From Kayfunavirus PDP351P3, in sequence record OZ035732.1: a stretch of 39,050 nucleotides of DNA, one strand, 5' to 3'. The notes under the pieces were generated by a model. It was not told the origin of the DNA. It worked only from the letters and a program-made list of their open reading frames with translations, and searched no databases. Positions 1 through 39,050 of this stretch are shown in pieces. A program made the position numbers and the translations under genes. Numbering within the stretch: the stretch's first letter is position 1; the number at the start of each line of letters is the position of its first letter.

Positions 1-29
1 TACAAAACGATTAAAGGAGGTGGTAAAAC

Positions 30-293
30 ATGACGCAGATGGACTTAGAGAAGTTCCTCTTGATGCTGGATACTGAACGTGCTCGCCTCATGCTGCAAGA
101 CCTGCGGGATGACTCTAAGCGTTCACCTCAGCTCTACAACGCCATTGAGAAGCTGCTTGCTCGTCACAACTTCGTGCTAAGCAAGGTGTCTGTGGACGAG
201 AAGACGCTGGCTGATATGGAGGCCCTGAACGCAGAGTACGATAAGGTGCTTTCAGCGACTGAGGATAATGACACCGGGTATGGTGTTCAATAA
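30..293 (+). CDS. small terminase subunit / DNA maturation protein A (T7 gp18-like)
   Basis: 87-aa ORF with AAAGGAGG RBS upstream; aligns over full length with T7 gp18 as recalled (LEMLDT...RSPQLYNAI.KLL.RH); synteny upstream of 18.5 and 19. Confidence 0.85.
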   Translation: MTQMDLEKFLLMLDTERARLMLQDLRDDSKRSPQLYNAIEKLLARHNFVLSKVSVDEKTLADMEALNAEYDKVLSATEDNDTGYGVQ

Positions 294-337: not shown

Positions 338-350
338 CTAAGGAGGTTAC

Positions 351-752
351 ATGAAAGATTCATACATAAGTGGCGGTTACTGGAAGGTTACTCGTAATGG
401 TAAGGTTCATGGAGTTCATAGATTACTATGGGAGGAAGCCTACGGTCCTATCCCAGATGGTTACGTCATAGACCACATTGATAGGAATCCTATGAATAAC
501 GAACTGTCAAACCTTAGGTGCATACCTAAAGGCGCAAACAAGGCTAACACTGTATCCTCTAGGGAACTACCTAAAGGCGTATACTCTAGGTTTGCTAAAC
601 GTCAAGGTATTACTGTGTACTATGGTGACATTAGGATGGGAGGTAAGAAAGAAACGCACGCTCCTACTAAGAATCTGATGGAAGTCGTGGAATGGGCTAA
701 GTCAACTCATAGTAGAATGCTTAAGGAGACATATGGTATTTCAAATGTTTAA
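351..752 (+). CDS. free-standing HNH homing endonuclease
   Basis: 133-aa ORF with AAGGAGG RBS; motif H-R-LLWEE-YGPIP-GYVIDHID-N-NN-SNLR shared with the two other HNH ORFs in the window; AT-richer codon usage (AGG, ATA, CTA) than neighbours; inserted between genes 18 and 18.5. Confidence 0.85.
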   Translation: MKDSYISGGYWKVTRNGKVHGVHRLLWEEAYGPIPDGYVIDHIDRNPMNNELSNLRCIPKGANKANTVSSRELPKGVYSRFAKRQGITVYYGDIRMGGKKETHAPTKNLMEVVEWAKSTHSRMLKETYGISNV

Positions 753-1179
753 GAGAGCGGCTCCGTGGTTACTTGCAGCAGTGATGTTTGCTGGTGGCTA
801 CCACACCGCTAACAATAAGTGGGAGGCTAAGGTCAATGCAGAATACACCTCGAATCTTAAGGCATCGGAAGATACAAGGCTTGCTGTCCAAGCTGAAGTC
901 AACAAAGTGTCCAAACGGTTTCAGGACGAAATGTCCTCGCTGGAAGGCAGCACTGATAGGATTATTGCTGACCTTCAGTCTGACAATAAGCGGCTGCGCA
1001 TCCGAGTCAAACCTACGAGTGGAACCACGCAAAGTGACGGTCGATGCGTCATTGATGGTTACGCCGAACTTGACGAACGAGATGCTAAACGTCTTATCGC
1101 CATCGGAGTGAAAGGAGACAAATGGATTAAGGCACTTCAGGACACTGTGAGAGCCTTACAGCAAGATAAGGAGGTGTAA
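733..1179 (+). CDS. i-spanin (Rz-like, T7 gp18.5-like)
   Basis: 148-aa ORF with N-terminal TM segment ([13 protein letters not shown]); aligns with recalled T7 gp18.5 ([20 protein letters not shown]...DERDAKR); start could instead be ATG 745. Confidence 0.8.
836..1111 (+). CDS. o-spanin (Rz1-like, T7 gp18.7-like) embedded in +1 frame of the i-spanin gene
   Basis: Alternate-frame ORF inside 18.5; GGAGG RBS 9 nt before ATG 836; lipobox LTISGC followed by ASES..., matching recalled T7 gp18.7 (PRWKGALIGL...ISGCASES...MLNV). Confidence 0.7.
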   Translation: MQNTPRILRHRKIQGLLSKLKSTKCPNGFRTKCPRWKAALIGLLLTFSLTISGCASESNLRVEPRKVTVDASLMVTPNLTNEMLNVLSPSE

Positions 1180-1181
1180 CC

Positions 1182-2945
1182 TTGAGTAAAGACTTAGTGG
1201 CCCGTCAGGCGCTAATGACTGCACGTATGAAGGCAGACTTCGTGTTCTTCCTGTTCGTCCTGTGGAAAGCTCTGTCACTCCCCGTCCCGACTCGCTGTCA
1301 GATTGATATGGCGAAGAAACTATCGGCTGGGGACAACAGGCGCTTCATCCTACAGGCGTTCCGTGGTATCGGGAAGTCCTTCATTACGTGTGCCTTCGTT
1401 GTCTGGAAGTTATGGAACAACCCAGACTTGAAGTTCATGATTGTGTCGGCCTCAAAGGAACGAGCCGATGCTAACTCCATCTTCATCAAGCGAATCATCG
1501 ACCTCATGCCTCAGCTTCAGGAACTCAAACCTAAGCAGGGACAGCGAGATGCGGTTATCAGCTTCGACGTTGGACCAGCCAAGCCAGACCACTCACCTTC
1601 GGTTAAGTCCGTTGGTATCACTGGTCAGTTGACTGGTAGTCGTGCTGACATCCTGATTGCCGATGACGTGGAGGTTCCGAACAACTCAGCGACTCAGGCC
1701 GCACGAGACCGTCTGTCAGAGCTTGTGAAAGAGTTCGACGCTATCCTGAAGCCGGGAGGTACAATCATCTATCTGGGTACTCCTCAGAACGAGATGACCT
1801 TGTATCGTGAGCTGGAAGGCCGTGGGTACACCACTACTATCTGGCCTGCTCGTTACCCACGTGATAAGAAGGACTGGCAGTCTTACGGCGACCGTCTGGC
1901 ACCGATGCTTCAGGCAGAGCTGGAAGAGGACCCTGAGTCCTTCTACTGGCGTCCGACTGATGAAGTACGCTTCGATGATACGGACCTGAAGGAACGCGAG
2001 TTGTCATATGGTAAAGCTGGCTTCGCTCTACAGTTCATGCTTAACCCGAACCTGAGTGATGCAGAGAAGTACCCTCTGAAGCTCCGTGACCTTATCGTAG
2101 CAGACTTGGACCCAGCATCCAGCCCAATGGTCTACCAATGGTTGCCGAACCCTCAGAACAAGCGTGAGGACGTTCCTAACGTTGGACTCATGGGTGACTC
2201 ATACCACACGTATCAGACTGTAGGTTCTGCCTTCAGTTCGTACACCCAGAAGATTCTGGTCATTGACCCTAGTGGTCGTGGTAAGGATGAAACTGGCTAT
2301 GCGGTACTATACCAGCTCAACGGCTACATCTTCGCTATGGAAGTTGGTGGTATGCGTGGTGGCTATGAAGACTCTACTCTGGAAGCGCTGGCTAAGATTG
2401 GTCGTAAGTGGAAGGTCAACGAATACGTCATTGAGGGTAACTTCGGTGATGGCATGTACCTTGAGCTATTCAAGCCTGTAGCGGCCCGTATTCATCCTGC
2501 TGCTGTAACTGAAGTGAAGAGTAAGGGTCAGAAGGAACTCCGCATATGTGACGTTCTGGAGCCTATCATGGGGTCTCACCGACTTATCGTTAACGCTGCT
2601 GCTATCGTCCAAGATTACCAGTCGGCCTCTGATAAGGATGGTGTTCGTAACCCTATCTACTCTCTCTTCTACCAGATGACACGTATCTCTCGTGAACGTG
2701 GAGCCTTGGCACACGATGACCGACTTGATGCTCTGGCTATCGGTGTACAGTTCTTCGTTGAGTCTATGGCTAAGGATGCCAACAAAGGCGAACGTGAAGT
2801 CACTGAGGAGTGGCTGGAGGAACAGATGGAGAACCCACGGAAAGGCTTCGAGTCCATCCACACTGAGTTCTGGGACAATGGGGTCCGGGTAACTCACGAT
2901 ACGGACGACGAGCTGGGGCTAGGGTCCTACATTACGTTCCACTAG
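1182..2945 (+). CDS. large terminase subunit / DNA maturation protein B (T7 gp19-like)
   Basis: 587-aa ORF, TTG start with AAGGAGG RBS; near-colinear match to recalled T7 gp19 ([72 protein letters not shown]). Confidence 0.95.
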
Positions 2946-3039
2946 CTTAATGAATAACTATGGGTGAAAGCTGCATGAATACGCAGTTAGTAACCTATAG
3001 TTACTACCAGTCTAACCTACTGTTTTACAAGGAGTTTGG

Positions 3040-3062
3040 ACTTAACTATCACTATAGGGAAG
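3040..3062 (+). promoter_or_regulatory. phage RNAP promoter (phiOR-like, downstream of gene 19)
   Basis: ACTTAACTATCACTATA-GGGAAG; matches the 11-member promoter family of this genome; predicted +1 G at 3057. Confidence 0.7.
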
Positions 3063-3241
3063 ACCCCCGGTTACTTATAGTATTACTGTAGTGAATATAC
3101 ATATGCAGACTTTATGCAAGACCTTAGGAGGCAGACTCCGAGTTCTTACCTAAGGCTTGCACCGATGGAAGGAGGGTGATATTAATCATAATCCCTCCAA
3201 TACAGATAGTAAAGACCATAGATACAGGAGGTATGTAGCAT

Positions 3242-3400
3242 ATGGCAAAGACCAAAGCTGTACTTAAAGCTCTGGCGACCAATCGAGCTACATACAGGTT
3301 TCTTACTGCTGTTCTACTTGCTGCTGGCGTTACTGCTGGAAGTCAGTGGGTCGGGTGGGTCGAGACTCTCGTATGTTCTCTGGTCTCTCAGTGTAATTAA
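3242..3400 (+). CDS. small hydrophobic protein (gene 19.5 position)
   Basis: 52-aa ORF with AGGAGG RBS, predicted TM segment (FLTAVLLAAGVTAG); position corresponds to T7 gene 19.5; no sequence match asserted. Confidence 0.4.
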   Translation: MAKTKAVLKALATNRATYRFLTAVLLAAGVTAGSQWVGWVETLVCSLVSQCN

Positions 3401-3561
3401 CGCAATCATGGTAACGATTCATGAGCGGAAGACCTAAGGTCAGTACGTGGATAAAGACTCACTCTACTGACCTTAGCTACTGTAGTCAAGGACTTTAGGT
3501 AACACCTTAAGAGAAGCTCACTTAGGGTCATCCTACTTATTGGTCTATCCTAGTGTCGCCT

Positions 3562-3602
3562 GACCTACGGTCCTTGACCTACAGTGGCTGTGGCCTACAG
3601 TA
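3562..3602 (+). repeat. short-repeat array (ACCTACRGT x3), candidate SRR-like repeats left of the terminal repeat
   Basis: GACCTACGGT, GACCTACAGT and GCCTACAGT within 40 bp. Confidence 0.5.
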
Positions 3603-3638
3603 GTGACGATGAGTTTGGACCAAAAGTTTGAGACCACA

Positions 3639-3840
3639 TCTCACAGTTCAAGAACCTCAAGTCTCCCCATAGGCCCTCTTTCAGTCCAGACCAAAGGCCC
3701 TACCCCAGTCTATCATAAGGTTGGACCGATGGTCAAGACGTTAGGTCGACGATAGGTCTAGGCTATGGCTTAGGGAAGGACGATAGGTTGGGACTATGGG
3801 TCTTCTTTGAGTCTCTATCTGTATCAGACCTTGAGTCACT
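3639..3840 (+). repeat. probable direct terminal repeat (single collapsed copy) containing the physical genome ends
   Basis: Begins with TCTCACAGT, the sequence that starts the T7 genome as I recall it; internal similarity to the T7 terminal repeat (TCCCCCATAGG, TCTCTATCTGT); flanked on both sides by ACCTACAGT arrays; boundaries approximate. Confidence 0.45.
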
Positions 3841-3925
3841 ACCTACAGTCTAACTACCTACAGTCTAACTACCTACAGTCATCGACCATCGGTACTGCCG
3901 CTACCTACAGTCAGAGACCTACAGT
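3836..3925 (+). repeat. short tandem repeat array (CTAACTACCTACAGT x3 plus 2 extra CCTACAGT), SRL-like
   Basis: Three tandem 15-bp units followed by two more CCTACAGT copies, directly right of the putative terminal repeat. Confidence 0.6.
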
Positions 3926-4036
3926 TAATAGACACAAAGGCTATAGACTTAAGGTCTAAGACATGTTAGTCAAAGACTATATCCTCTTACACCATGAGGC
4001 CGACGATAGCTTAATCAATATTATTTAAATTACCTA

Positions 4037-4065
4037 TTGACTATGGGTCTCGACTATGGCTTAAT
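4037..4065 (+). promoter_or_regulatory. candidate host sigma70 early promoter (A1-like)
   Basis: TTGACT-N17-CTTAAT; downstream sequence (CGTCAACACGACACGGCA) resembles the T7 A1 region as recalled. Confidence 0.4.
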
Positions 4066-4177
4066 AGCTTCCGTCAACACGACACGGCAACAACCGGATA
4101 GTGAAGACGCCGGGTCATCCCGGTTAAGTAGACAGCCTGCTAAGTCATACGAACAACAGGCAGATGACAGAAAGTAG

Positions 4178-4207
4178 TTGACAAGTAGTACAGACTTAAA
4201 GTAGTAT
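4178..4207 (+). promoter_or_regulatory. candidate host sigma70 early promoter (A3-like)
   Basis: TTGACA-N18-TAGTAT followed by GTACCACAT...CACTGAAA...CTCTTTAACAATCTGG, closely resembling the T7 A3 promoter and downstream leader as recalled. Confidence 0.5.
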
Positions 4208-4406
4208 GTACCACATCGAAACAACGGTGACGACCGACACTGAAACGGTCTACCTGAAGTCCTCTGACTGAAGGGAATGCTCTTTAACAATCTGGATAAA
4301 CTCTTAATGTGCGCCGATAGCGACTAACTACAGGGTCTTTGAGTCTACATCTGAAGGCCCTGACTGATAGTCACTAACACATACTTAACTTTGAGAGGAT
4401 ATAACT

Positions 4407-4916
4407 ATGGAACGTAACGCTAACGCATACTATGAGCTGCTGGCTGCAACTGTTGAAGCATTTAACGAGCGCATTCAGTACGACGAAATAGCTGAAGGCG
4501 ATGACTACTGCGATGCGCTGCATGAAGTCGTAGACGATATGGTTCCGCACTATTACCACGAGATTTTCACGGTGATGGCTGCCGATGGTATTGACCATGA
4601 GTTCGAAGACTCTGGGCTGATGCCTGAGACCAAGGACGTAACGTGTATACTACAAGCTCGCATCTATGAGGCACTGTATAATGATGTGTCTAATAGCTCG
4701 GATGTGGTATGGTTCGAGCCTGAAGAGGGCGACGAAAAGGCTGAATATTGGGTAGTTGATGCTAGAACAGGCGAGATAATTGAGCAAGCTGTATCACTTT
4801 ACGAGGCTATTGCATGTGCAAAAGACCTCTATGAGGCAGGTTTTCACATGCAGGTCGAAGACATCAATGATAACGTAGTGTTCGACCCTGCGTCTGCTGA
4901 GGAGGACTGCGAGTGA
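4407..4916 (+). CDS. ocr: Ocr-like DNA-mimic anti-restriction protein (gene 0.3) with about 55-aa C-terminal extension
   Basis: 169-aa highly acidic ORF; residues 1-105 align with recalled T7 Ocr ([43 protein letters not shown] vs [43 protein letters not shown]); first gene after the early promoters. Confidence 0.85.
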
Positions 4917-11378: not shown

Positions 11379-11533
11379 CTGAGGTTGAGAAGAAGTACAT
11401 CGTGGAGCTTGAGGGTCGCGTTCAGTCCTTCGAGGTTCCGGTGTACGCAAAGTCTCTTGAAGAGGCTACCATGAAGTCCCAAGAGTATGAGGACGCTGGG
11501 TTTGTGGTCGGACGGATTCGTCCTGAGACCTAA
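11375..11533 (+). CDS. host RNA polymerase inhibitor (T7 gp2-like)
   Basis: 52-aa ORF (below ORF-track cutoff); [14 protein letters not shown]...[14 protein letters not shown] matches recalled T7 gp2 (SFEVPIYAETLDEA...PAGFEVTRVRP). Confidence 0.75.
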
Positions 11534-11551
11534 ACTATCACTGTAGGACAT
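11529..11551 (+). promoter_or_regulatory. phage RNAP promoter variant (phi2.5-like)
   Basis: CTAAACTATCACTGTA-GGACAT; one core mismatch (G at -3). Confidence 0.55.
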
Positions 11552-11590
11552 ACGTCCAGTTCGTAACTTTAAATTAGGAGATTTACACCG

Positions 11591-20284: not shown

Positions 20285-20557
20285 ATGGCGATTAATGCTA
20301 TTGAAAACGTTGTTAAGCAGTTACAGGAAGAAAGACTTGATGTCCCGAACATCTCCCAGTCTGCCATCCAGTTCCTGCACGTACTGTTCAACGCAAGCTA
20401 CGCTGAGAAGACGGGAGCTATCAGCCTCCTCAAGCAGCAGGGCTACAGCGATGCGTTCATTGCCGGGTTTATCAAGGGTCTCCAGTATTGCTCTGACACT
20501 CTCGACTCTGCGATTGCTATGCGTCGTGAGCTGAAAGATACCGTTCAGTTCGATTAA
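20285..20557 (+). CDS. hypothetical protein (gene 6.5 position)
   Basis: 90-aa ORF-track ORF with AGAGGAG RBS after the phi6.5-like promoter. Confidence 0.5.
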   Translation: MAINAIENVVKQLQEERLDVPNISQSAIQFLHVLFNASYAEKTGAISLLKQQGYSDAFIAGFIKGLQYCSDTLDSAIAMRRELKDTVQFD

Positions 20558-20571
20558 CTGTAGGAGGGACT

Positions 20572-38792: not shown

Positions 38793-38889
38793 CATCAGAA
38801 GGTTGTGGAGGTAGAGGCTAACTACACGCTGACCAACGTATGATAACAACTTTGGGTCATGGACGACCCGCTTTAAACTGGAGGTTTTA

Positions 38890-39050
38890 TGATTGAGTTA
38901 GACTTCAAGAATGAGGTCCTTAAAGCCTCTCCTATCGTCGGGACCGCTGCGGCTGATGGTGCCAGTCGGTTCTTCTTCGGACTCACACTGAACGAATGGT
39001 TCTACGTTGCAGCTATCGCGTACACCGTTGTCCAGATTGGTGTGCTAGTC
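38890..39050 (+). CDS. type II holin (T7 gp17.5-like), 3'-truncated by window end
   Basis: ATG 38890 with GGAGG RBS; MIELDFKNEVLKASPIVGTAAADGASRFFFGLTLNEWFYVAAIAYTVVQIG matches recalled T7 gp17.5 (MLSLDFNNELIKAAPIVGTGVADVSARLFFGLSLNEWFYVAAIAYTVVQIG); no stop within window. Confidence 0.8.

What the first reader, a model, noticed from the sequence alone, without database searches (positions are those of the whole stretch)
3540..3930. Physical genome ends probably lie inside the window (circular permutation); collapsed terminal repeat flanked by ACCTACAGT arrays
Gene order runs 18-19 then 0.3-17.5, so the window is permuted relative to a T7-type linear genome. About 240 bp after the gene 19.5-position ORF there is the sequence TCTCACAGT (3639-3647), which is how the T7 genome begins as I recall it. 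It is followed by about 200 bp resembling the T7 terminal repeat, then a tandem array of CTAACTACCTACAGT units (3836-3925). A second ACCTACRGT cluster lies just upstream (3562-3602). This layout (SRR array, terminal repeat, SRL array, early promoters) matches a concatemer junction with one terminal repeat copy collapsed by assembly.
Basis: partly seen in the sequence, partly recalled or inferred. Interest (0 to 1): 0.55.

Follow-up and report, generated by a model that had tools for sequence, protein, structure and literature searches.

The report
Collapsed terminal repeat of T7-like phage
The window is a complete, circularly closed assembly of a K1F-like (Kayfunavirus) relative of phage T7, and 3639-3816 is the single collapsed copy of its 178-bp direct terminal repeat, so the virion DNA ends lie there; this is an ordinary, well-documented feature of the phage group.

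Summary
The two ends of the window join seamlessly inside gene 17.5, so the window is one concatemer unit of a Kayfunavirus genome. The nearest public genomes are about 93-95% identical.

Window 1167-3816 aligns to the right end of the phage EcoDS1 record, stopping exactly at its last base. Window 3639 onward aligns to base 1 of the same record. So 3639-3816 (178 bp) stands for both terminal repeats, which the assembly collapsed into one copy. It is 174/178 identical to EcoDS1's annotated repeat.

About 20 of the 60 listed relatives' records begin exactly at the position matching 3639. These include K1F, Vec13, Peacock (ends predicted by PhageTerm) and SH3 (ends mapped by run-off Sanger sequencing).

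The surroundings match the T7 and T3 concatemer junction part for part:
- a phiOR promoter and gene 19.5;
- a conserved inverted repeat;
- a three-unit CCTACRGT array;
- the terminal repeat;
- ATCTGTA, which matches the T7 RNA polymerase pause signal ATCTGTT at 6 of 7 positions;
- a five-unit CCTACAGT array;
- host promoters and gene 0.3.

One correction: the repeat is 178 bp, not about 200 bp. The ends are inferred by homology, because no reads were available. Novelty and interest are low.

The parts
30..293 (+). Gene 18, terminase small subunit.
   Evidence: PHROG 1351, E = 1.1e-34. Colinear with EcoDS1 gene 18.
1182..2945 (+). Gene 19, terminase large subunit. This is the enzyme that cuts at the repeat boundaries.
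   Evidence: PHROG 38, E = 6.5e-132. About 96% nucleotide identity to the region holding EcoDS1 gene 19.
3040..3062 (+). Phage RNA polymerase promoter phiOR, pointing rightward into the junction.
   Evidence: The 23-mer ACTTAACTATCACTATAGGGAAG is identical to the phiOR annotated in EcoDS1. It belongs to the phage promoter repeat family.
3242..3400 (+). Gene 19.5, the last gene of the linear map.
   Evidence: PHROG 2193, E = 1.8e-24. It matches the position of the 19.5 genes annotated in EcoDS1 and PE3-1.
3434..3476 (.). Perfect 12-bp inverted repeat (CTAAGGTCAGTA / TACTGACCTTAG, 19-nt spacer) centred 184 bp left of the terminal repeat start. It is a candidate equivalent of the palindrome implicated in T7 concatemer processing (inference).
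   Evidence: DNA fold of -11.3 kcal/mol, z = -3.6. The arms are invariant in 13 Kayfunavirus junctions while the loop diverges. T7 and T3 have palindromes centred 190 and 184 bp left of their right repeats.
3561..3601 (+). Right-end short-repeat array, the equivalent of T7 SRR. It has three units: TGACCTACGGT, TGACCTACAGT and TGGCCTACAGT.
   Evidence: Up to three units, at about -76, -62 and -46 from the repeat start, in the 11 other junctions scanned (one to three present in each).
3607..3638 (+). Nearly invariant segment just left of the left-end cut site (GACGATGAGTTTGGACCAAAAGTTTGAGACCACA).
   Evidence: No substitutions in 13 aligned junctions. The only difference is one base missing from a T run in the window.
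3639..3816 (+). The single collapsed copy of the 178-bp direct terminal repeat. Base 3639 is the inferred left end of virion DNA and base 3816 the inferred right end, give or take a few bases.
   Evidence: The alignments to both ends of EcoDS1 overlap here. It is 174/178 identical to the EcoDS1 repeat and 170/178 to that of K1F. Repeat lengths in relatives are 178-184 bp. About 20 records start at this position. There is no second copy in the window.
3817..3823 (+). ATCTGTA, immediately right of the repeat. It corresponds to the concatemer-junction (class II) pause signal ATCTGTT of T7 RNA polymerase.
   Evidence: T7 and T3 both have ATCTGTT as the first bases after their repeats. EcoDS1 annotates CTATCTGT as 'concatemeric junction'. 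The motif is unchanged in the 13 aligned junctions. The heptamer itself is not enriched in the window, so the argument rests on position.
3835..3925 (+). Left-end short-repeat array, the equivalent of T7 SRL. It has five exact CCTACAGT units, three of them in perfect 15-bp tandem, plus one degenerate unit.
   Evidence: Relatives carry two to seven units, and the differences are insertions or deletions of whole units.
4037..4073 (+). Early host (sigma-70) promoter, A1-like.
   Evidence: It differs at one of 37 positions from the first 'host RNAP promoter' annotated in EcoDS1.
4178..4207 (+). Early host promoter, A2/A3-like (TTGACA, 18-nt spacer, TAGTAT).
   Evidence: Promoter scan, 10 of 12 matches. 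It matches the second host promoter annotated in EcoDS1.
4407..4916 (+). Gene 0.3 (Ocr-like anti-restriction protein), the first gene of the linear map.
   Evidence: PHROG 2568, E = 2.4e-55.
38889..39050 (+). The 5' part of gene 17.5 (holin). It continues at window 1-33, which shows that the window is a closed circle cut inside this gene.
   Evidence: The joined ends give a 64-aa ORF. Window 39050 and window 1 align to EcoDS1 35636 and 35637, which are adjacent.

Best explanation
The window is one concatemer unit (39,050 bp) of a lytic T7-like phage of the genus Kayfunavirus, the K1F/EcoDS1 group. The assembly software closed it into a circle and cut it inside gene 17.5.

In the virion the DNA is linear. 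It starts at window 3639 (TCTCACAGTT...), runs rightward through gene 0.3 to gene 17.5, crosses the window's end-to-start join, continues through genes 18, 19 and 19.5, and ends at about 3816 (...GAGTCTCT). The 178-bp segment 3639-3816 is therefore present at both ends, giving an inferred virion length of 39,228 bp. Reads from the two identical ends overlap, so the assembler merges them into one copy. A replicative concatemer looks the same.

What the sequence shows: the homology, the boundaries and the architecture.

What is inferred from work on T7 and T3:
1. Phage RNA polymerase starts at phiOR (3040-3062), transcribes across the junction and pauses at ATCTGTA (3817-3823).
2. Terminase (gp18 and gp19) is recruited there and cuts at the repeat boundaries.
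3. The single repeat copy in the concatemer is duplicated, so that every packaged genome carries two. The conserved inverted repeat at 3434-3476 may take part in this step.
4. The CCTACRGT arrays on both sides are this genus's version of the T7 SRR and SRL arrays. Their role is not established even in T7.
For: - Circular closure: window 39050 aligns to EcoDS1 35636 and window 1 to EcoDS1 35637. The join restores a 64-aa holin ORF.
- Boundaries: window 1167-3816 aligns to EcoDS1 36626-39252 (the end of the record), and window 3639-3879 aligns to EcoDS1 1-238.
- Repeats in relatives: EcoDS1 annotates 1-178 and 39075-39252. Vec13 has 179 bp. K1F has 178 bp by my prefix/suffix test. Peacock has 179 bp by PhageTerm. 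SH3 has 184 bp in its record; PMC4925675 reports 183 bp mapped by run-off Sanger sequencing on virion DNA, and cites 179 bp for K1F.
- Identity: 174/178 to the EcoDS1 repeat and 170/178 to K1F. Alignment to the T7 and T3 repeats scores 63 and 70, against about -19 and -27 (sd about 11) for shuffled sequences.
- About 20 of the 60 listed records begin at the position matching 3639. These include two separately deposited K1F sequences of 39,704 and 39,699 bp.
- Copy number: the segment occurs only once in the window.
- Shared junction layout: T7 and T3 have ATCTGTT immediately after their repeats, and the window has ATCTGTA. phiOR is identical to the annotated EcoDS1 phiOR.
- Arrays: enriched (16 copies against 1.69 expected) and conserved in position across 12 junctions.
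- Mechanism background: the concatemer junction is a class II pause site. [quoted passage not shown]
Against: - No reads or virion DNA data exist for this genome, so the ends are inferred by homology only.
- The right boundary differs by a few bases between relatives. The SH3 repeat extends 4 nt into ATCTGT, and the K1F record stops 1 nt short of it. Base 3816 is therefore good to about 5 bp.
- The pause motif matches the T7 heptamer at 6 of 7 positions. That heptamer is described as strictly conserved for T7 polymerase. This phage has a different polymerase, and pausing has not been tested.
- The TCTCACAGT 9-mer is not statistically unusual on its own.
- The roles proposed for the arrays and the inverted repeat are untested.
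Confidence: 0.93

Rival explanations
1. The feature is a direct terminal repeat, but with different boundaries in this phage. For example, the right end may lie a few bases inside ATCTGT, as recorded for SH3, which would make the repeat about 180-184 bp.
For: The SH3 repeat is 184 bp in its record, while its ATCTGT starts at offset 180. The K1F record ends 1 nt before its ATCTGT. The methods used to call ends differ between records: Sanger run-off, PhageTerm and alignment.
Against: In EcoDS1, Vec13, Peacock, T7 and T3 the repeat ends exactly before ATCTGT. The window is closest to EcoDS1 across this segment (174/178).
Confidence: 0.12
2. The phage packages by the headful mechanism, or is truly circular or circularly permuted. 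On this view the window has no fixed ends, and the similarity to terminal repeats is a relic.
For: The assembly closes into a circle. At least one relative's record, ST0223, is deposited as circular.
Against: Circular closure is the expected assembly artefact for short direct terminal repeats. The terminase region is about 96% identical to that of EcoDS1. Relatives whose ends were mapped have fixed ends at the matching bases. The cut-site flanks are nearly invariant across the genus, as expected for a site-specific cut. T7-like phages are classed as having fixed termini (PMC3896407).
Confidence: 0.02
3. The CCTACAGT arrays are by-products of replication slippage next to the genome ends and have no function. 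Only the repeat and its immediate flanks matter.
For: The number of units in the left array varies from two to seven among 12 junctions, through insertions or deletions of whole units. To my knowledge no function has been shown for the T7 SRL and SRR arrays (from memory).
Against: Arrays sit on both sides of the repeat in T7 and in this genus (T3 seen only right of its repeat), even though the unit differs: CCTAAAG against CCTACAGT. The right-array units keep fixed offsets of about -76, -62 and -46. The motif is strongly enriched.
Confidence: 0.3

Closest known systems
Terminal repeat and concatemer junction of Kayfunavirus phages (K1F, EcoDS1, Vec13, Peacock, SH3)
   Same: - It is the same element: 174/178 identical to the repeat annotated in EcoDS1 and 170/178 to K1F.
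- The first bases are the same (TCTCACAGTTCAAG).
- The ATCTGTA that follows is the same.
- The CCTACRGT arrays, phiOR and the gene 19.5 to gene 0.3 context are the same.
   Different: - A few substitutions.
- One base fewer in a T run at about 3615.
- Five units in the left array, where relatives have two to seven.
- Only two of the three early host promoters annotated in EcoDS1.
- Across the first 25 kb searched the window is about 93-95% identical to the nearest records, so it is probably a separate species.
Phage T7 terminal repeat (160 bp) with SRR and SRL arrays and the concatemer-junction pause site
   Same: - The layout is the same: phiOR, gene 19.5, palindrome, right array, repeat, ATCTGTx, left array, host promoters, gene 0.3.
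- The first nine bases are identical (TCTCACAGT).
- There are 113 identical columns across the repeat.
   Different: - The repeat is 178 bp against 160 bp.
- The array unit is CCTACAGT instead of CCTAAAG.
- The pause motif is ATCTGTA instead of ATCTGTT.
- No phiOL promoter was seen between the left array and the first host promoter.
- The upstream palindrome is a longer, perfect 12-bp inverted repeat with a 19-nt spacer, against T7's 7 pairs with one mismatch and a 3-nt loop.
Phage T3 terminal repeat (231 bp)
   Same: - The left third of the repeat is very similar: TCTCATAGTTCAAGAACCCAAAGT in T3 against TCTCACAGTTCAAGAACCTCAAGT in the window.
- ATCTGTT follows the T3 repeat.
- A palindrome is centred 184 bp left of the right repeat, the same distance as in the window.
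   Different: The T3 repeat is 53 bp longer and contains CCTAAAG-type units. The array unit differs.

Membership tests
Direct terminal repeat / concatemer junction of T7-type phages (Studiervirinae) | The genome has the T7 gene order and T7-type terminase subunits gp18 and gp19. | tested here: met
   The window is colinear with EcoDS1 along its whole length. PHROG hits identify gp18, gp19, gp19.5, gp0.3 and the RNA polymerase.
Direct terminal repeat / concatemer junction of T7-type phages (Studiervirinae) | The segment is homologous to terminal repeats whose ends were mapped in relatives, with matching boundaries. | tested here: met
   Window 3639 matches base 1 and window 3816 matches the last base of EcoDS1. 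Identity to the EcoDS1 repeat is 174/178. SH3's ends were mapped by run-off sequencing and Peacock's were predicted by PhageTerm.
Direct terminal repeat / concatemer junction of T7-type phages (Studiervirinae) | The same sequence is physically present at both ends of linear virion DNA. | not testable with these tools
   No reads or virion DNA are available. The assembly holds only one copy, as expected after collapse.
Direct terminal repeat / concatemer junction of T7-type phages (Studiervirinae) | The repeat is non-coding, lies between the last gene (19.5) and the first gene (0.3), and is flanked on both sides by arrays of short repeats. | tested here: met
   It lies between 19.5 (ends at 3400) and 0.3 (starts at 4407). 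The arrays are at 3561-3601 and 3835-3925. T7 has the same layout.
Direct terminal repeat / concatemer junction of T7-type phages (Studiervirinae) | A phage promoter (phiOR) lies upstream and reads into the junction. | tested here: met
   The 23-mer at 3040-3062 is identical to the phiOR annotated in EcoDS1.
Class II (concatemer-junction) pause signal of T7 RNA polymerase | The seven-base motif ATCTGTT, preceded by A, C or T, lies at the right edge of the repeat. | tested here: inconclusive
   The window has T-ATCTGTA at 3816-3823. This is 6 of 7 positions, at the right place and with an allowed preceding base. The motif is described as strictly conserved for T7 polymerase. The A at position 7 is unchanged in the 13 Kayfunavirus junctions aligned. 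Pausing by this phage's polymerase has not been tested.

The most novel reading that the evidence does not exclude
The perfect 12-bp inverted repeat at 3434-3476 may be a conserved cis-acting site for duplicating the terminal repeat during concatemer processing, through a hairpin-primed or nick-primed copy of the repeat. Its arms are invariant across the genus while its loop diverges. It lies 184 bp left of the repeat, the same distance as the palindromes in T3 (184 bp) and T7 (190 bp). The CCTACAGT arrays resemble the left terminus TCTCACAGT and might serve as auxiliary binding sites for terminase or polymerase. If so, this genus would offer a cleaner substrate than T7 for settling how T7-type terminally redundant ends are made. 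[quoted passage not shown]
Probability: 0.25. Interest if true: 0.4.

Novelty: already known. Interest (0 to 1): 0.08.

Why it matters
The value is practical. The result says how this genome record should be linearised and annotated: start at 3639, append a second copy of 3639-3816 at the right end, and give a virion length of about 39,228 bp. It also warns that ORFs called across 3400-4400 are probably spurious. Several public records of relatives annotate 'hypothetical proteins' over the repeat and the arrays. Biologically it adds one more instance of a junction architecture conserved across T7, T3 and K1F-type phages. Nothing here challenges current understanding.

Tried and rejected
- **Second copy of the repeat in the window.** None was found. 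The only direct-repeat families of 30 nt or more are phage promoters.
- **Known RNA family in 2950-4420.** No Rfam match at E <= 1.
- **Intrinsic terminators in 2950-4420.** None found.
- **TCTCACAGT and ATCTGTW as stand-alone signals.** Neither is enriched in the window. I relied on homology and position instead.
- **Other CCTACAGT sites in the genome.** The two minus-strand sites at 11540 and 20557 are a phage promoter variant, ACTATCACTGTAGG. The remaining sites lie in coding sequence and look incidental.
- **Left-array unit as a degenerate phage promoter.** It shares only the CTAACTA part with the promoter, so I dropped the idea.
- **Original K1F genome paper.** Scholl and Merril 2005 (PMC1317022) is not held in the library. 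The 179-bp figure is cited second-hand from PMC4925675.
- **Papers on the T7 hairpin intermediate.** I could not retrieve the primary papers, so that link rests on my memory plus the position of the palindromes.
- **Headful or circular genome.** Rejected; see the rival explanations.

Full report
**What the window is**

BLAST against public phage genomes places the window in the genus Kayfunavirus, the K1F/EcoDS1 group of T7 relatives. The junction region 3200-4420 matches 406 records, the best at about 94% identity. The first 25 kb match the nearest records at about 93-95% identity over about 90% of their length. So this genome is not itself in the collection, but it is a close relative of many that are.

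A full-length comparison with EcoDS1 (NC_011042) is colinear. Window base 39050 aligns to EcoDS1 35636 and window base 1 to EcoDS1 35637. Joining the window's ends restores a 64-aa gene 17.5 (holin) ORF, whose stop overlaps the gene 18 start codon as ATGA. The window is therefore a closed circular assembly that was cut inside gene 17.5. Several OZ0357xx Kayfunavirus records begin at the same point.

PHROG searches confirm gp18, gp19, gp19.5, gp0.3 (Ocr-like) and the RNA polymerase at the expected places.

**Checking the observation**

- TCTCACAGT is at 3639-3647, 239 bp after the gene 19.5 stop. The 9-mer alone is not significant: two copies occur against 0.83 expected.
- The downstream array is real. 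TRF finds 2.9 perfect copies of a 15-mer at 3838-3880. There are five exact CCTACAGT units up to 3925, plus one degenerate unit.
- The upstream cluster has three units at 3561-3601.
- CCTACAGT occurs 16 times in the window against 1.69 expected, and seven of those lie in 3578-3925.

**Locating the terminal repeat**

Window 1167-3816 aligns to EcoDS1 36626-39252 and stops exactly at the record's last base. Window 3639-3879 aligns to EcoDS1 1-238. The overlap, 3639-3816 (178 bp), equals the terminal repeat annotated in EcoDS1 at 1-178 and 39075-39252. Identity is 174/178.

| Relative | Repeat length | Basis |
|---|---|---|
| EcoDS1 | 178 bp | record annotation |
| Vec13 | 179 bp | record annotation |
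| K1F | 178 bp | my prefix/suffix test; 179 bp cited in PMC4925675 |
| Peacock | 179 bp | PhageTerm prediction |
| SH3 | 184 bp in the record, 183 bp in the paper | run-off Sanger sequencing from virion DNA |

About 20 of the 60 listed records begin at exactly the position matching 3639. They include two separately deposited K1F sequences. The window holds no second copy of the segment. This is what assembly of a genome with short direct terminal repeats produces, and it is also the structure of the replicative concatemer.

The inferred virion DNA runs from 3639, around the circle, to about 3816, for a length of 39,050 + 178 = 39,228 bp. The right boundary is good to about 5 bp. In EcoDS1, Vec13, Peacock, T7 and T3 the repeat ends just before ATCTGT. 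The SH3 repeat extends 4 nt into that motif, and the K1F record stops 1 nt short of it.

**Anatomy of the junction compared with T7 and T3**

T7 begins TCTCACAGTGTACGG. It has a 160-bp repeat followed immediately by ATCTGTT and then the CCTAAAG array (SRL), with further CCTAAAG/CCTAAGG units (SRR) left of the right repeat. The T3 repeat is 231 bp and is also followed by ATCTGTT.

The window has the same order of parts:
1. phiOR at 3040-3062, identical to the promoter annotated in EcoDS1
2. gene 19.5
3. an inverted repeat at 3434-3476
4. a three-unit array at 3561-3601
5. a nearly invariant 32-bp flank
6. the repeat at 3639-3816
7. ATCTGTA at 3817-3823
8. a five-unit array at 3835-3925
9. two host promoters (4037-4073 and 4178-4207)
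10. gene 0.3

The repeat aligns to those of T7 and T3 far better than to shuffled versions: scores of 63 and 70, against about -19 and -27 with sd about 11.

I aligned 13 Kayfunavirus junctions. The cut-site flanks, the first ~100 bp of the repeat, its last ~20 bp and ATCTGTA are almost invariant. The left array varies between two and seven units by insertion or deletion of whole units.

**How it most likely works**

The sequence establishes the homology, the boundaries and the shared architecture. The rest is inferred from the T7 and T3 literature:

1. Genomes join through their repeats into concatemers that carry one repeat copy per junction.
2. Phage RNA polymerase transcribing from phiOR pauses at the class II signal at the right edge of the repeat. 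With lysozyme it then interacts with gp18 and gp19 to start maturation.
3. Terminase cuts at fixed sites.
4. The repeat is duplicated so that each packaged genome has two copies (PMC5923468).

[quoted passage not shown] The window's pause motif matches the T7 heptamer at 6 of 7 positions. The A at position 7 is fixed across the genus, so it may reflect the different polymerase. Pausing has not been tested.

**The inverted repeat**

A perfect 12-bp inverted repeat lies at 3434-3445 and 3465-3476. As single-stranded DNA it folds at -11.3 kcal/mol, z = -3.6. It is centred 184 bp left of the repeat start. Its arms are invariant across the genus while its loop diverges. T7 has an imperfect palindrome centred 190 bp left of its right repeat, and T3 has one at 184 bp. 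K11 has none at that distance.

From memory, Chung, Nardone and Hinkle (1990) mapped a hairpin processing intermediate in T7 to about that position. I could not retrieve the paper, so this link is only a lead.

**Rivals**

- Headful packaging or a truly circular genome is very unlikely. The terminase region is about 96% identical to that of relatives with mapped fixed ends, and T7-like phages have fixed termini.
- A shift of a few bases in the right boundary is possible.
- Whether the arrays have any function is open.

**Verdict**

The only refinement is the repeat length: 178 bp, not about 200 bp. The feature is essentially the same element already annotated in EcoDS1, K1F, Vec13, Peacock and SH3, so novelty and interest are low. 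Direct proof still needs read mapping or run-off sequencing. The SH3 primer GCCCTACCCCAGTCTATCAT matches 3697-3716 exactly and could be reused for that.

Noticed in passing
window 3434-3476: A perfect 12-bp inverted repeat with a 19-nt spacer lies 184 bp left of the repeat start. Its arms are invariant in 13 relatives while its loop diverges. T7 and T3 have palindromes at 190 and 184 bp. It may correspond to the T7 hairpin processing site.
   Followed up: partly
window 4209-4274, compared with EcoDS1 (L010) 640-858: The window has only two of the three early host promoters annotated in EcoDS1. The 219-bp EcoDS1 stretch that carries the third promoter (764-800) is replaced by 66 bp in the window. 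This looks like a deletion or recombination between the similar A2- and A3-type promoter regions.
   Followed up: partly
window 11530-11560 and about 20550-20570: A phage promoter variant has G in place of A (ACTATCACTGTAGG rather than ACTATCACTATAGG). It accounts for the minus-strand CCTACAGT hits outside the junction.
   Followed up: yes
L008 (Peacock) 149-244; L015 (22664BS1) 77-1543; L018 (ST0223) 25-1534: Several public records of relatives annotate short 'hypothetical protein' genes across the terminal repeat, the short-repeat arrays and the early promoter region. These are probably spurious gene calls in non-coding DNA.
   Followed up: no
window 1 and 39050: The window starts inside gene 17.5, 29 nt before the gene 18 start codon. 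Several OZ0357xx Kayfunavirus records start at the same point, which suggests a shared assembly or rotation convention.
   Followed up: partly
window 351-752: EcoDS1 has no aligned counterpart to window 342-740. The 133-aa ORF there contains text resembling an HNH-type homing endonuclease (DHIDRNPMNN), so it is probably a mobile insert between genes 18 and 18.5. I did not test this.
   Followed up: no
window 3614-3616: The window has a run of three T where the other 12 aligned junctions have four, in the otherwise invariant flank left of the cut site. This could be a real difference or a homopolymer sequencing error.
   Followed up: no
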